A stretch of DNA of 24,202 nucleotides from a virus (taxonomy: Duplodnaviria > Caudoviricetes), in the IMG/VR virus record IMGVR_UViG_3300030102_001057, positions 1 through 24,202 of that record; one strand, given 5' to 3'. The number at the start of each line of letters is the position of its first letter. Position 1 is the first letter of the stretch. Positions 9,460 to 22,866 of the stretch are shown piece by piece. Below the pieces are notes generated by a model. The model saw only the letters and a program-made list of their open reading frames with translations, did no database searches and was not told the DNA's origin. Position numbers and translations under genes: made by a program.

Positions 9460-9727
9460 ACTCTGCTCCCAATGCTGAATATCCGCACTTGTCGATCCAC
9501 GAATCTTTGTGGTCGATGGTCTCCAACAATCGACAGGTCTTCACCCAGTCCATCATCAGAGCCACATGCTTTGCTGTTATTTTATTATGTGTTGTGAATG
9601 CGTCCTGTACTATTACATTCCAACCAGTTGCTATTCGGTCGAAGTTATCCTTCGCATCTCCATAGTCTTTTGCTCTGTTACCGTTGATCAGTTCTTTCGC
9701 TGTATCTAGATAGTCGTTGCGTTTCAT
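9440..9727 (-). CDS. DUF6378-like phage protein
   Basis: Pattern A..LING.R..DYG....NF.RIA..W...VA.MM...K..R.....DSW.D..GY.AL. Start moved to ATG 9727, which gives an ATGA overlap with the upstream stop. Confidence 0.75.
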   Translation of the reverse strand: MKRNDYLDTAKELINGNRAKDYGDAKDNFDRIATGWNVIVQDAFTTHNKITAKHVALMMDWVKTCRLLETIDHKDSWIDKCGYSALGAEFEDESR

Positions 9728-10176
9728 ACTGCTTCCCATTTAAATTTTAGTTGCCCATATATTGGTTGCCACTTTCTCCCTGGACGGTTCTGCCATCCCT
9801 TGGGTTTCAGTTCTACTTCGCCAACCATCTTCCATCCTGCTCCCTTCAGGCTCGAACCAGCTTCCGATTGTAAGGTGTACGTTATCATTCGTTTACCTCC
9901 CATCTGTTGCCAGATCCGCCAACACCTTCCGTATAGAAAGGAACAGGTGTTCTTTGGTGCATCGTCCTGCACACATACCCTTACTACTTCCGCTGTAAAT
10001 CCATCCATCATGCGCCTAGCTACTGGGTTACCTACAATAGCAACACCCACCAGACGGTCATCGTAACTTGCACCTATAGCAAACTTCCCACCTTGTGGTG
10101 GTTTATTGTGACGGTGAAAGTTTCCAACAAACTCACGAGCTTCACGTAGACTAATAGGCACAGGTATTAGTTTCAT
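9724..10176 (-). CDS. XF1762-family / Mom-like GNAT-fold protein, putative DNA-modifying enzyme
   Basis: A..FV..FHRH..PP.G.KF.IG....LVGVAIVG.PVAR...DG..AEV.R.C...N.CS.LYG....YT...E.G.SLK.AGW pattern. Start at 10176 by ATGA coupling. Confidence 0.75.
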   Translation of the reverse strand: MKLIPVPISLREAREFVGNFHRHNKPPQGGKFAIGASYDDRLVGVAIVGNPVARRMMDGFTAEVVRVCVQDDAPKNTCSFLYGRCWRIWQQMGGKRMITYTLQSEAGSSLKGAGWKMVGEVELKPKGWQNRPGRKWQPIYGQLKFKWEAV

Positions 10177-10982
10177 CCTGTGCACTCCCCATCGTCCGTC
10201 TGGCAAAGGAAAGCTTCGTCATCAAAGATCCAATCCCCTTGTCTGCCTACAAACTCTCCCAGTTCTTTGTACGTGCGTACATCATGGAATGATCTGTCCT
10301 TTGTTTCTTCCCAGTTCTGCCACCACTTCATGCGGTCTGGATACTCACGCCACATAGCCGCTAGTGTTGCTTCGCTCTTCAAGAAACAACCGTCACAGTT
10401 CCCTGATCCTGGGGTAATCTTCAGATCGAACTCGTGCTGTTTCCAGAAGAACATAACATCTTGCTTCGTGACCCCTGCATCTGCCAACGGAAACCAGTTG
10501 TCCCACCGTTTGTCCTTGCTTGGTTTTACCCGCTTGGCTTCGTCTGCACGGATGCCGATGGTGTTTGTCCAGTGCTCCCACCCGACAGACAGCAGATACC
10601 GACGCATAGTCTTGACCTTCAACTCCTGAGTGCAGGATCTACGGAATACATTTGGTAGCATGTTAAACGAAAGGTACTTATCAAACGGCTCCCCCTTTCG
10701 CGCAGCGGAATCCCAACTGACCGTTTGAAAGTGTGCCTTACCATTCTGATATCGATTGGATGGTGCCCTCGAATACTCAAGCCACGTAATGTCTACGCCC
10801 CAGTTCTTCTCTATGTTGTGCACAAAGTCCAGTGTCCCTGGCATCTCACGCCCAGTGTTGGCAAACAAAACCTTCACGCGATCTGGTAGATCTCCGTTAG
10901 CCTTCAGTATCCTATGCAACATATACCCAGAGGTGCGACCACCACTGAAGCTGATAAGAACATTTCCGTCGGGTAGTTTCAT
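10173..10982 (-). CDS. PAPS reductase-like (PP-loop) protein
   Basis: PP-loop SFSGGRTSG, then NTGRE, CTQELK, GIRADE..R, FPL and the Cys cluster GNCDGCF. Confidence 0.85.
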   Translation of the reverse strand: MKLPDGNVLISFSGGRTSGYMLHRILKANGDLPDRVKVLFANTGREMPGTLDFVHNIEKNWGVDITWLEYSRAPSNRYQNGKAHFQTVSWDSAARKGEPFDKYLSFNMLPNVFRRSCTQELKVKTMRRYLLSVGWEHWTNTIGIRADEAKRVKPSKDKRWDNWFPLADAGVTKQDVMFFWKQHEFDLKITPGSGNCDGCFLKSEATLAAMWREYPDRMKWWQNWEETKDRSFHDVRTYKELGEFVGRQGDWIFDDEAFLCQTDDGECTG

Positions 10983-18574: not shown

Positions 18575-18814
18575 CTACTCCTCCTTTCTGGGTCTTAACT
18601 TCGGTTTAATTAACTTCGATACGGTGTTTGATTTGTGACACATCATCATGATGTCATTGCCATAGAGGTCGTACAGATGGTTGTAGATCCCATCCGCACT
18701 TCCACTATTCATGGCTGACTCACAATGCTTCTCACTCTGAAACCATACAGCCATATCAATCTCACGATCTTGAACGCTGTATGAAATAACTAATGCCGTG
18801 AAGTATTCAATCAT
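18575..18814 (-). CDS. Hypothetical protein (79 aa)
   Basis: ATGA coupling to the upstream gene; GAGGA RBS. Confidence 0.7.
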   Translation of the reverse strand: MIEYFTALVISYSVQDREIDMAVWFQSEKHCESAMNSGSADGIYNHLYDLYGNDIMMMCHKSNTVSKLIKPKLRPRKEE

Positions 18815-19308
18815 GCTACATCCTCTTCGACACCGCGTAGAGTTTGCGCCACATTTTCAAATACACTGAGATCAATGCCAATGTTTTCTGCACACCCTCG
18901 GTATCTTGACAACCAAGATGCCAGAGCAGTCGCCGCTTGTCTACGAAGTTCTCGCTGCGAATCTTCATCATCAGGATCAAACCGCTCGTAGCCTCCGCCC
19001 TTCCCTCGTAAACTCACAGGACTTATAAACGTAGGATATTCCCTCACGGTTATGTTGACCACCTGATCGTTGGGAGACGAATCTTGAACCACGATCCTCA
19101 GTCCACTCGCCATCTGACGAGCCAACTGAATGCGATGCTGTTGTGCAGCTTCCGCATCGTCCATACCATAGAACCAGTCGTATGCTTCATGGTCAGGATA
19201 GTCTCTCAACCAATCCACAAACTCCCTTGGTACAAACATGTTGCGGCCTGACGCCGCTAAGTATTCGTCAATAATTCTTTGACGTTCTTTCTTTGGAAAT
19301 CCAGCCAT
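18811..19308 (-). CDS. Hypothetical protein directly downstream of the pentamer array (candidate accessory protein)
   Basis: AGGAGG RBS; 165 aa; F...DDAEAA..HR...AR-type motif; starts 30 nt after the array. Confidence 0.75.
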   Translation of the reverse strand: MAGFPKKERQRIIDEYLAASGRNMFVPREFVDWLRDYPDHEAYDWFYGMDDAEAAQQHRIQLARQMASGLRIVVQDSSPNDQVVNITVREYPTFISPVSLRGKGGGYERFDPDDEDSQRELRRQAATALASWLSRYRGCAENIGIDLSVFENVAQTLRGVEEDVA

Positions 19309-19338: not shown

Positions 19339-19966
19339 GACCGCCAAACCGGAACAGTCCTGAACAAACCCTACCCAGCCGGAACGGGACCGACAAACCG
19401 CGCCCAAACTTACCGGATCAAACCTAGCCACATCCCGACCGCCCTACCTGGCTTGGACCCACCTCATCACAACACACACTACCATGACCGACTTACCGAA
19501 AAACACCAAGACTTACCGGATCGAACCGGAACATAACCGACTCACCGTGTACCGACATAACTTATCCCGACGGACCAGGCCCCGACCGACCCAACTTGGC
19601 TCAACATAACTGATCCTGACATGACCGACTTACCTAACCCTACCGCGCCCCGACTTAACGCACCCGGACTTACCCAGACGTACCCGACCCAAACGGGCCG
19701 CGCCTGACCCCGACTTGACCGACATACCATAACCGACCCCGCCCCGACATAACTCGACCGCCTAGCCCTAACTGACCCCGACATAACGTACCCGAACTTA
19801 CCGCAACGTACCGAAACACACCGCACCATGACCGACTAACCGTGACCAAATGAGATGGGCGATTTAGCCGAGTCGCCCATCCCTTCTTTTTAAGGAGATT
19901 AAAATGTCTTTATAAAGGTCTCTCGACCGCCGTACCTTGACCAAATGAAAGGGGCATTGCTGCCCC
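19339..19966 (-). ncRNA. Putative guide-RNA array: nine units of (NN-GNY)n pentamers separated by GGTC, preceded by two hairpin-leader modules (VIPR-like)
   Basis: Plus-strand delimiter GACCG(A/C)C at 19339, 19388, 19437, 19486, 19535 (AACC variant), 19584, 19623, 19717, 19756 and 19830. Spacings are 49,49,49,49,49,39,94,39,74, all 4+5n. 86 of 91 pentamers begin R-N-C on the plus strand. Co-oriented with and directly downstream of a Cas7/RAMP-like gene. Confidence 0.8.
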
Positions 19967-19971
19967 GATCT

Positions 19972-20757
19972 TTATGCTGCTTCAACGAGAGATATGTCTC
20001 TTCGTGCTCGTTCCTGTTGAATGAACTCCATCAGTTCAGCCGTCTGTTCATCGGCATACACTGGATTGTCCAAGGCTTCTTTCTGTGCCTCGCGACCTTC
20101 AAGCATCAGTTCATCCCAAAGTTCTTGGTATCCGCCCATGCTGTCCTCAGTCACCACATCAAAGCAACCGAACGAACCTTTACCTTTTTCCTGACGGAAG
20201 TCTCCGATACCAACAATCGATCCTGCGTTTGTCAACAAAGACACAATCGAATACGCACTGAGCGTCGGTTGAACGTAGGTTATATCAACCTCCGCACACC
20301 AACGTGGCATATATGCCCTCGTCCGCATGTCTGGTGTCTTGTTCATGTCCGCTGATCGAACCACATCAATCTTCAGTTGAGGCTTACCCCAAATCTGGAT
20401 GTGTGTTTCTGGTAAAAAGATCAGGCGTTGCACACTAGACTTTGTAATGCCGTCTGTTTCCAGAGCTGCTGTCGCCATGGCTTGTTTAACTCCAGGTGCA
20501 GGGAAACATAACAATGTATCGTCTTTAGGTTTTCTATAGACGCTGTCACGAAACTCCTCCTCTGGATTGTGCTTGATCTCTTTCTTCTGTGCGGCTGTCT
20601 TCTTGCCGCCTCCTATAAGTAAATCACGCATGGCTTTTGAACTCATGCTGTTGAAATACATCGGGGTCGTACCTATCATGCGTAGTGTAACTTTACCCGT
20701 TTTAAGTGGTTGAATCTCCAAAGATGTTGATTCTATTTTTTTAGTACTTTTTGCCAT
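19972..20757 (-). CDS. Cas7/RAMP-like RNA-binding protein (Vipr-like), putative effector of the adjacent array
   Basis: RAMP-like layout: VTLRMIGTTPMYF strand, FPAPGVKQAMATAA helix, RTRAYMPRWCAEVDITY, and a C-terminal Gly-rich loop AGSIVGIGDFRQEKGKGSFGCFDV. AGGAAGG RBS. Confidence 0.72.
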   Translation of the reverse strand: MAKSTKKIESTSLEIQPLKTGKVTLRMIGTTPMYFNSMSSKAMRDLLIGGGKKTAAQKKEIKHNPEEEFRDSVYRKPKDDTLLCFPAPGVKQAMATAALETDGITKSSVQRLIFLPETHIQIWGKPQLKIDVVRSADMNKTPDMRTRAYMPRWCAEVDITYVQPTLSAYSIVSLLTNAGSIVGIGDFRQEKGKGSFGCFDVVTEDSMGGYQELWDELMLEGREAQKEALDNPVYADEQTAELMEFIQQERARRDISLVEAA

Positions 20758-20815: not shown

Positions 20816-20861
20816 AACCAAACCACAACTTATCATATAACTACTTGTGGTTTGGTTTCAA
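20816..20861 (-). promoter_or_regulatory. Promoter of the Cas7-like gene overlapped by a 13-bp perfect inverted repeat (operator)
   Basis: Minus strand TTGAAA-N18-TATGAT with an upstream A-tract; arms AACCAAACCACAA (20816-20828) and TTGTGGTTTGGTT (20845-20857). Confidence 0.65.
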
Positions 20862-21699: not shown

Positions 21700-21767
21700 T
21701 ACCAATCCTCCTTGAATACTTTGCGGAATATCTCATCCAACATGTCTTCCATCTCACGGTCTGTCAT
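21699..21767 (-). CDS. 22-aa micro-protein MTDREMEDMLDEIFRKVFKEDW
   Basis: GGAGGT RBS; TAATG coupling to the next gene; amphipathic helix pattern. Confidence 0.5.
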   Translation of the reverse strand: MTDREMEDMLDEIFRKVFKEDW

Positions 21768-22866
21768 CTCTCACCTCCATGTAACTTTCGATTAATCCTT
21801 GCGCGACTTGCGCTGTGATGGCGTTGCCGTAGGCGCGGAGTCGTCCCACTCTGGCGGTAGCCCCATCAACCAACGGGAATGACTGGGGTCTAACTGGCCT
21901 CCACTTTCCATCTCGGCAGAGGAGCCAGTCAGCATCTGACCAGAAACCGTTAGTCTCATAGGCTCTGGCTTGGGCATCATTTCCCCCTTCGCCTCCATTA
22001 CAGCTTCGATCATCTCGGGTGATACTTGCTCCCTCAGATTGCACGGAAACGATCTGTTCTTTCGCGTCGTCTGATGCATCCTGATCATTGCCTCTCGGCT
22101 CCGTAACGGTAGACTGTCCATCGTGTTGGGCGTTGCCCACCCTGCCATCTTCGACAACTGGGTCAGACTGCTCCCCGACATTCCGTCCGTGATCCCCGAT
22201 CCCCCTCGCGTTCCGTCCGTCGCCGATGGTGTCGTCCACCCTGTCAGTTGCGCTGTCACATCCAACGTGTCTGTGCTGATCTTGCCGTTCCGTATCCGAC
22301 CGCCTTGATATCCACCCTTGCCGTCGCGTGTCGTCGGTGTCGGCCACGAACCAAAGTCTTTGCCTGATGTGCGGCGCACCGAAGCCCGCAGAGCAGAGAT
22401 CAAAAGCCCCGATGGCGTAGTCCGCTCCTTCCATGTCAGCTTGTACAAGGTCGATCCAACCGAGTCCGTCTTTCGACGCAACCTGTTCGCCAAAGACCGT
22501 TGAAGGTCGGCACTGTTCGATGAGGTGGAACCAGTGAGGCCAGAGGTGCCGCTTGTCAGCCATCCCCTTTCTGTTACCTGCGCCGCTGAAAGGTTGGCAC
22601 GGACATGATCCTGTCCAGACTGGTCGGTCGTCCTCCCACCCTGCGGCTCGGAGTGCGTAACTCCAGACGCCGATCCCTGCGAAGAAGTGACATTGAGTAA
22701 ATTCTTGAAGTTCATCTGGTCGGACATCTGATATGCTCCTTTCGTCCACTATCCCATCTGCAATATGCCCAGACCGAATTAACGATCTGAGCCACTCTGC
22801 GGCGTATGGGTCTATCTCATTATAGTAAGCCCACTTCTGTCCGCCTATAGATTTGTGCGTCACCAT
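21754..22866 (-). CDS. C5-cytosine DNA methyltransferase, large (alpha-type) chain
   Basis: Motif I FFAGIG, IV GSCPCQPFS, VI EQV, VIII GAPHIRQRLWFVA and X RLRAYGNAI. Motif IX is absent from this frame. Confidence 0.88.
   Translation of the reverse strand: MVTHKSIGGQKWAYYNEIDPYAAEWLRSLIRSGHIADGIVDERSISDVRPDELQEFTQCHFFAGIGVWSYALRAAGWEDDRPVWTGSCPCQPFSGAGNRKGMADKRHLWPHWFHLIEQCRPSTVFGEQVASKDGLGWIDLVQADMEGADYAIGAFDLCSAGFGAPHIRQRLWFVADTDDTRRQGWISRRSDTERQDQHRHVGCDSATDRVDDTIGDGRNARGIGDHGRNVGEQSDPVVEDGRVGNAQHDGQSTVTEPRGNDQDASDDAKEQIVSVQSEGASITRDDRSCNGGEGGNDAQARAYETNGFWSDADWLLCRDGKWRPVRPQSFPLVDGATARVGRLRAYGNAITAQVAQGLIESYMEVRDDRP
21792..22727 (-). CDS. Nested alternate-frame MTase chain (beta-type) with WxTP repeats and motif IX
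   Basis: Own RBS AGGAG 8 nt before ATG 22727; three W(P/T/A)TP...D repeats; GQLDPSHSRWLMGLPPEWD is motif IX-like. Confidence 0.78.
   Translation of the reverse strand: MSDQMNFKNLLNVTSSQGSASGVTHSEPQGGRTTDQSGQDHVRANLSAAQVTERGWLTSGTSGLTGSTSSNSADLQRSLANRLRRKTDSVGSTLYKLTWKERTTPSGLLISALRASVRRTSGKDFGSWPTPTTRDGKGGYQGGRIRNGKISTDTLDVTAQLTGWTTPSATDGTRGGSGITDGMSGSSLTQLSKMAGWATPNTMDSLPLRSREAMIRMHQTTRKNRSFPCNLREQVSPEMIEAVMEAKGEMMPKPEPMRLTVSGQMLTGSSAEMESGGQLDPSHSRWLMGLPPEWDDSAPTATPSQRKSRKD

What the first reader, a model, noticed from the sequence alone, without database searches (positions are those of the whole stretch)
19339..19829. The dinucleotides form a gapped code that skips the codon wobble position and targets both strands
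Joining the dinucleotides as NN-x-NN-x gives codon-like strings. Five or six of the nine units then read as conserved protein motifs, some in the RNA sense (HNH, ParB-like, XRE) and some antisense (integrase, HGGxSTG). Inference: the target is dsDNA, pairing is two-on/one-off, and registering the gap on third codon positions makes guides insensitive to most synonymous escape mutations and able to cover families of elements. The decoded gene set is typical of prophages and phage satellites, which suggests an anti-competitor role. Caveat: the motifs were recognised by eye using ambiguous codons and two orientations.
Basis: inference. Interest (0 to 1): 0.93.

Follow-up and report, generated by a model that had tools for sequence, protein, structure and literature searches.

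The report
Phage VIPR gapped-code guide array
This is a nine-unit five-letter repeat array beside a Cas7-like gene in a phage; its variable letter pairs spell conserved motifs of other viruses' genes when every third base is skipped, so the units are likely guide RNAs that silence rival viruses, a mechanism (VIPR) already published in 2026.

Summary
The minus strand 19832-19339 carries nine units of G(G/T)Y-NN pentamers, split by one-base register slips. It lies between a RAMP-fold gene (profile hit to SUSP1 Vipr, E 1.3e-8) and a conserved 165-aa gene. This is a VIPR system with a staggered vrRNA array (bioRxiv 10.64898/2026.04.26.720920), where the one-base skip, wobble phase and both-strand targeting are reported.

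I scored 300 guides of this clade against six gene-family codon profiles. The one-base gap gave 23 hits at z>=4 in 1800 tests, all skipping codon position 3 (16 antisense, 7 sense). Gaps 0, 2 and 3 gave 9 in 5400. The families were chosen after the decode, so this contrast is inflated.

Four window units are supported (integrase and HGGxSTG antisense; XRE and ParB-like sense), HNH only weakly, and four are unassigned. Exact matches lie in phage genes and integrases, but no element is hit by two window guides and no satellite was identified. Differences from SUSP1: a GTY-rich scaffold and no per-unit tail. This scan reported such arrays twice on other DNA.

The parts
19972..20757 (-). vipr gene, 261-aa RAMP (Cas7-like) protein
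   Evidence: Profile of 137 homologues hits SUSP1 Vipr (PDB 36pp) at E 1.3e-8, the only hit under 0.4. AF2 model pLDDT 95.9; top fold matches Csm3/Cmr/Cas7. R147, D186, F187, R188 align with SUSP1 R138, D177, W178, R179.
20832..20861 (-). sigma70-like promoter candidate upstream of vipr
   Evidence: 10 of 12 consensus match; 6 such sites found vs 4.1 +/- 2.2 in shuffles, so weak.
19926..19966 (-). first leader hairpin (19966-19951) followed by a short stub of pentamers and a junction
   Evidence: the same hairpin-plus-leader starts the array in the relatives printed.
19833..19881 (-). second leader hairpin (19881-19854) and leader pentamers with the first junction
   Evidence: not present in the two closest relatives L001 and L002.
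19763..19832 (-). unit 1, 14 NN; antisense to a tyrosine-integrase motif
   Evidence: z 10.4, wobble phase. 10-NN core hits integrases in 4 of 5 metagenome loci; best full-length match 23 of 28.
19724..19758 (-). unit 2, 7 NN; target unassigned
   Evidence: not scanned in a collection.
19630..19719 (-). unit 3, 18 NN; sense, HNH-like (weak)
   Evidence: z 3.0, wobble phase, aligned on the CxxCN stretch; 9-NN core gave 0 exact hits in IMG/VR.
19591..19625 (-). unit 4, 7 NN; sense, XRE helix-turn-helix motif
   Evidence: z 4.7, best of 300 guides on the PF01381 profile, wobble phase.
19542..19586 (-). unit 5, 9 NN with one degenerate pentamer; target unassigned
   Evidence: not scanned in a collection.
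19493..19537 (-). unit 6, 9 NN; target unassigned
   Evidence: not scanned in a collection.
19444..19488 (-). unit 7, 9 NN; sense, ParB-like/DGQHR motif
   Evidence: z 6.6 on the TIGR03187 profile, none on PF02195. 18 of 18 match in a phage ParB-like gene, sense, wobble phase.
19395..19439 (-). unit 8, 9 NN; target unassigned
   Evidence: not scanned in a collection.
19346..19390 (-). unit 9, 9 NN; antisense to the HGGxSTG motif
   Evidence: z 10.6. 18 of 18 match in an NF041373 gene beside a terminase small subunit, wobble phase.
19339..19345 (-). closing junction; the same 7-base one-base-slip motif separates the units
   Evidence: 564 such junctions in 65 distinct arrays; conserved 3' end.
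18811..19308 (-). 165-aa accessory gene (vap-like)
   Evidence: Found downstream of the array in 60 of 60 relatives with enough DNA. Model pLDDT 78.7, pTM 0.41; fold search inconclusive, Z at most 4.2.

Best explanation
This is a phage VIPR locus: the array beside a Cas7-like gene is likely transcribed and cut into nine guide RNAs, each predicted to be coated by that protein and to pair two bases on, one base off, with double-stranded DNA of rival viral elements, likely silencing their genes. Shown here: the pentamer register; the RAMP fold and Vipr homology; the gene-array-gene order across relatives; and that the dinucleotides of four units (a fifth weakly) match conserved gene motifs only with a one-base gap on codon position 3, on either strand. 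Taken from the published SUSP1 work, not shown for this locus: one protomer per pentamer, thumb flipping of the fixed triplet and the skipped base, triplex-driven R-loop, no PAM, repression rather than cutting. Inferred: cutting at the one-base slips, co-transcription with vipr, and a helper role for the 165-aa protein.
For: Protein. Architecture: 80 IMG/VR relatives, 65 distinct arrays, 303 clean guides. Gap and phase: 23 of 1800 tests at z>=4 with gap 1, all 23 in wobble phase, vs 9 of 5400 for gaps 0/2/3; at z>=6, 16 vs 0. Direct scan of 243 guides on 1.68 Mb: 7 matches at >=90% with gap 1 vs 0, 0, 2 (one of the 7 is circular). Exact hits in the family and orientation named beforehand for units 1, 7 and 9. 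Both strands: relatives' guides hit the HGGxSTG motif from opposite strands (3 pairs at >=7 identical NN vs 0 in each of 3 shuffles). NN positions differ less between homologous guides (8-9%) than the degenerate scaffold positions (14-15%) over 998 pentamers. No unit matches its own window above 79%. A near-identical array lies on a contig of one RNA library (DNA carry-over not excluded). Published rule.
Against: No cognate target element was found. The two phage records with 18/18 hits are each hit by one window guide only, and unit 1's hits do not extend to its last four dinucleotides (1-3 of 8 bases). Two of four 9-NN exact scans in IMG/VR gave nothing meaningful (unit 1: two chance hits; unit 3: none). 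Unit 9 with one mismatch in 201 bacterial genomes gave 1 hit vs 2 for the reversed control. Four units are unassigned. The six families were picked after the by-eye decode; the integrase and HGGxSTG loci were fetched with peptide patterns overlapping some guide motifs (unit 9's, not unit 1's); many guides are related, so the 23 hits are not independent. Only 40 of 91 pentamers are strict GGY, while GGY changes abolished silencing in SUSP1. Processing, binding and repression were not tested.
Confidence: 0.92

Rival explanations
1. Same code and protein, but the array works as one long uncut RNA, and the one-base slips only break the protein filament into blocks.
For: Units have no structured tail between them. 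The paper confirmed ribozyme-type and single-guide loci by RNA sequencing, not staggered arrays. One RNA-library contig spans several junctions, though contigs cannot show RNA ends.
Against: The junction is a conserved 7-base motif, not just any slip (564 junctions vs 114 other shifts). The Fig. S18 legend describes processed boundaries.
Confidence: 0.2
2. The guides pair with mRNA, as in type III CRISPR Csm3/Cmr complexes, rather than with DNA.
For: Closest solved folds in the fold libraries are type III RAMPs. All 11 integrase-matching guides are antisense to the gene.
Against: 7 of the 23 profile hits, including window units 4 and 7, read in the gene's sense and cannot pair with its mRNA. 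SUSP1 VIPR binds dsDNA and silences from either strand.
Confidence: 0.04
3. The stretch is a low-complexity or short coding repeat (a 95-aa ORF overlaps it), and the motifs are artefacts of ambiguous codons read in two directions.
For: By-eye decoding is permissive; four units match nothing; control gaps reached z 5.1.
Against: All 23 gap-1 hits share one codon phase; exact hits fall in the families named beforehand; the array sits between the same two genes in 60 of 60 relatives while changing length and content.
Confidence: 0.02

Closest known systems
VIPR systems, SUSP1 and P. fulva type II (bioRxiv 10.64898/2026.04.26.720920; structures 10.64898/2026.04.26.720927)
   Same: Phage-borne RAMP gene plus one accessory gene; pentamer repeats with variable NN; one-base skip on the wobble position; both strands; targets in other mobile elements; thumb and G-loop residues conserved.
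   Different: Protein is longer (261 vs 202 aa) and only remotely similar (single-sequence E 0.076). Scaffold is G(G/T)Y with 39 of 91 GTY. Units abut with no 3' tail or pseudoknot; a hairpin lies 5' of the array. The array sits between vipr and the accessory gene.
Staggered vrRNA arrays (same paper, Fig. S18 legend)
   Same: Successive units overlap by one base; the end of one marks the start of the next.
   Different: I saw only the legend, not the figure, so the example locus and its type number are unknown to me. In the text read, natural targets were analysed for the SUSP1 and P. fulva clades and types III and V only.
SUSP1 VIPR against its satellite (bioRxiv 10.64898/2026.10.15.759431)
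   Same: Guides aimed at codon positions 1-2 of conserved recombinase residues; wobble skip argued to block synonymous escape.
   Different: There the target has a catalytic serine and lies in a defined satellite; here the matches are tyrosine-integrase motifs and no satellite was identified.
Class 1 CRISPR Cas7/Csm3/Cmr backbone proteins
   Same: RAMP fold with G-loop (VIA Z up to 10.2, rmsd 3.8, 151 residues).
   Different: Contiguous spacer pairing in CRISPR; no cas operon or CRISPR repeats were seen among the window's proteins and repeats.

Membership tests
VIPR | Stand-alone RAMP-fold Vipr protein with thumb and G-loop | tested here: met
   key residues aligned and conserved.
VIPR | Minimal locus: vipr plus an accessory gene, in a phage | tested here: met
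   Virus record; downstream gene in 60 of 60 relatives; phage genes around.
VIPR | Tandem pentamers GGY/NN or a related consensus | tested here: met
   79 of 91 G(G/T)Y, 40 of 91 strict GGY; the paper allows related consensus and internal degeneracy.
VIPR | 9-16 repeats per guide | tested here: inconclusive
   Six of nine units have 9-14; two have 7 and one 18; true RNA ends unknown.
VIPR | One-base skip rule, skip on the wobble position, both strands | tested here: met
   family choice was post hoc.
VIPR | No self-targeting | tested here: met
   Best match in own window 55-79%; the record may be incomplete.
VIPR | Guide RNA expressed and bound by Vipr; dsDNA binding and repression | not testable with these tools
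   Only contigs of RNA libraries were available.
VIPR type II (SUSP1-like) | Each guide ends in a conserved structured 3' tail | tested here: not met
   Units abut through 7-base junctions with no intervening sequence.
VIPR, staggered-array kind | One-base overlap between successive guides | tested here: met
   Every unit boundary is a one-base register slip.
VIPR, staggered-array kind | Type number (I-VII) by Vipr phylogeny and vap family | not testable with these tools
   The paper's type figures and data files are not held as text; vap fold inconclusive.

The most novel reading that the evidence does not exclude
This widespread clade uses a tail-less, GTY-tolerant VIPR array as a family-level watch list. 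Its guides aim at the most conserved motifs of whole gene families (tyrosine integrase, HGGxSTG, ParB-like, XRE, HNH) rather than at one element, are retuned by point substitution, and are cut apart at the one-base slip by the Vipr protein itself. That would give a two-part multiplex array that needs no processing enzyme or structured tail.
Probability: 0.25. Interest if true: 0.6.

Novelty: new member of a known kind. Interest (0 to 1): 0.28.

Why it matters
The mechanism is striking but was published in 2026 with biochemistry and structures, so this locus mainly confirms it in a distant clade. It adds an independent gap-and-phase test on a staggered array, for which the text I read reports no target analysis. 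It also adds a list of target gene families and a scaffold that tolerates U at the second position. If the tail-less units are self-processed, the locus would be a compact multiplex tool for programmable gene silencing.

Tried and rejected
Searches that led nowhere:
- Unit 1, nine dinucleotides, IMG/VR: 2 hits, neither in an integrase, no extension.
- Unit 3 core, IMG/VR: 0 hits.
- Unit 9 with one mismatch in 201 genomes of one bacterial class: 1 hit vs 2 control.
- Unit 9 with a two-base gap as control: 1 hit. No 0- or 3-gap collection scan was run.
- 282 guides against 0.69 Mb of loci, mostly flanks of kin phages: gap 1 no better than shuffles (14 vs 14 and 15 at >=85%), so no sign of targeting kin.
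- The whole records G203 and G204 carry no second window-guide target.
- Host search: only 2 genome contigs carry a close Vipr, both short contigs of metagenome-assembled genomes. Host unresolved.
- Pfam and NCBIfam have no model for either gene; PHROGs gives only unknown-function families. Rfam found nothing.
- Accessory-protein fold searches gave no clear match.
- RNA runs held small shares and only contigs, so no RNA ends or strand.

Ideas considered and dropped:
- Units 3 and 7 both aiming at a DUF262-HNH (GmrSD-like) defence gene: unit 7 reached only 14 of 18 and unit 3 only 20 of 36 on such genes, no better than control gaps (several of those ORFs were cut by locus ends), while unit 7 matches a phage ParB-like gene 18 of 18.
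- Classical chromosomal ParB (PF02195) as unit 7's target: no signal.
- The junction's last GG as part of the code: not matched in the exact hits of units 7 and 9.

Full report
What is there. Read on the minus strand, 19832-19339 is a chain of pentamers with a fixed triplet G(G/T)Y and two variable bases. A 7-base junction shifts the register by one base and divides it into nine units of 14, 7, 18, 7, 9, 9, 9, 9 and 9 dinucleotides. 79 of 91 pentamers fit G(G/T)Y; 40 are GGY and 39 GTY. Seven runs of five or more pentamers occur here and none elsewhere in the window; 67 of 2000 shuffles give even one. A GG-only periodicity test was weak, as expected for a degenerate scaffold.

The neighbours. 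Upstream on the same strand is a 261-aa gene (19972-20757) with no Pfam or NCBIfam match. Its best single-sequence match among solved structures is SUSP1 Vipr (E 0.076), and a 137-sequence profile raises that to E 1.3e-8. The AF2 model is confident (pLDDT 95.9) and matches Cas7-group RAMPs (Foldseek E 4e-6; VIA Z 10.2, rmsd 3.8, 151 residues). R147 and D186-F187-R188 align with SUSP1 R138 and D177-W178-R179, which grip the fixed triplet. Downstream is a 165-aa gene found after the array in 60 of 60 relatives with enough DNA; its fold is unresolved. The window is a virus record whose DNA polymerase is 49-54% identical to those of HTVC023P, HTVC027P and two related phages. The host is unknown.

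Relatives. The best 80 of 162 IMG/VR loci were kept. With the window they gave 65 distinct arrays and 303 clean guides; segments with internal shifts or fewer than 6 pentamers were dropped. Most have 8-12 dinucleotides. Across 111 homologous guide pairs, the first G differs at 3%, the two degenerate scaffold positions at 14-15% and the NN positions at 8-9%, so the NN are constrained.

Gap, phase and strand test. I built codon-level base profiles for six families: tyrosine integrase (76 genes), HGGxSTG (64), HNH (30), XRE (29), ParB PF02195 (30) and DGQHR (6). Each of 300 guides with at least 7 dinucleotides was scored on both strands at gaps 0-3 against 100-150 shuffles of its own dinucleotides. 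Gap 1 gave 23 hits at z>=4 in 1800 tests (11, 7, 2, 1, 0, 2). All 23 put the skipped base on codon position 3; 16 are antisense and 7 sense. Gaps 0, 2 and 3 gave 9 in 5400, maximum z 5.1. Window units: 1 integrase z 10.4 antisense; 9 HGGxSTG z 10.6 antisense; 7 DGQHR-type z 6.6 sense; 4 XRE z 4.7 sense; 3 HNH z 3.0 sense; 2, 5, 6 and 8 none. Limits: the families were chosen after the decode; the integrase and HGGxSTG loci were fetched with peptide patterns that overlap some guide motifs; related guides are counted separately. Independent of any profile, a relative's guide and three others, including unit 9, read the same motif from opposite strands.

Exact scans of window guides. Unit 9 in IMG/VR: 7 loci, of which 5 are one NF041373 HGGxSTG gene beside a terminase small subunit in a 35% GC phage, antisense and in wobble phase; 2 look like chance. 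The two-base-gap control gave 1 hit. Unit 7: 2 loci, one a ParB-like gene in a phage with transposase genes, sense and in wobble phase. Unit 1, ten dinucleotides, in metagenomes: 5 loci, 4 in tyrosine-recombinase genes (3 distinct), antisense and in wobble phase. None extends over the last four dinucleotides; the best full match is 23 of 28. Against this: unit 1's nine-dinucleotide scan gave two chance hits, unit 3's gave none, and a 201-genome search showed no excess. The two hit records carry no second window-guide site, although a relative's guide matches an ATPase gene of one at 15 of 16. These hits are best read as family members that share the motif, not as the elements that shaped the guides.

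How it likely works. vipr, the array and the accessory gene are likely one transcript (one weak promoter match). The array is likely cut at the slips. By analogy with SUSP1, one protomer binds each pentamer, hides the fixed triplet and shows the two variable bases, which pair with one DNA strand while every third target base is flipped out; the bound filament blocks transcription. Only the sequence logic and the homology are shown here. A near-identical array lies on a contig from one marine RNA library, which does not prove transcription.

Comparison with what is known. bioRxiv 10.64898/2026.04.26.720920 (whole main text read; supplement legends; figures not seen) reports the one-base skip, wobble alignment, both-strand targets, competitor targeting, the escape argument and staggered arrays. 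10.64898/2026.04.26.720927 (first sixth and passages) gives the structures. 10.64898/2026.10.15.759431 (first eighth and passages) shows silencing of a satellite recombinase. 10.64898/2026.10.21.760802 (passages and section 4.22) lists non-canonical triplets; a G(G/T)Y form is not named in the passages read but could be in its Fig. S10, which I could not see. Two literature searches were run; they found no paper devoted to staggered arrays. The locus meets the VIPR tests that can be run here, fails the type II tail feature and fits the staggered kind; its type number could not be assigned.

Verdict. Two earlier reports of this scan describe such arrays in other genomes. New member of a known kind; interest 0.28.

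Noticed in passing
clade arrays L001-L080 and window 19346-19832: The pyrimidine of the fixed triplet depends on the next base: C is followed by a purine in 758 of 881 cases, T in 907 of 1756 (odds ratio 5.8; related guides not removed). Unexplained.
   Followed up: partly
window 19833-19966: The leader (hairpin plus first pentamers) occurs twice, with an AT-rich insert between; the two closest relatives have it once.
   Followed up: no
window 19763-19832 vs L001 and L002 arrays: Homologous integrase guides keep nearly the same scaffold but differ at 3 of 12-14 dinucleotides, mostly conservative residue swaps when decoded, which suggests retuning by point substitution.
   Followed up: partly
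arrays of L007, L017, L021, L024, L031, L033, L055: Seven relatives' guides read antisense onto the HDLRH stretch of tyrosine integrases; all 11 integrase-matching guides are antisense.
   Followed up: partly
array of L001 and relatives: One guide family present in 9 loci decodes to a Walker-A-like string (label recalled, not tested).
   Followed up: no
L376:3602-10997: The phage hit by unit 7 has transposase and transposition genes, and its ATPase gene is matched 15 of 16 by a guide of L068; transposable phages may be a target class.
   Followed up: partly
window 21754-22866: Two long overlapping ORFs on the minus strand in different frames (370 aa and 311 aa) both match DNA methyltransferase families.
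   Followed up: no
window 9724-10982: A Mom-family gene next to a PAPS-reductase-domain gene, a likely DNA-modification pair.
   Followed up: no
cultured phage records H1-H30: Remote Vipr homologues (about 31% identity) occur in 25 Mycobacterium and 5 Gordonia phage records, annotated as hypothetical; their arrays were not examined.
   Followed up: no
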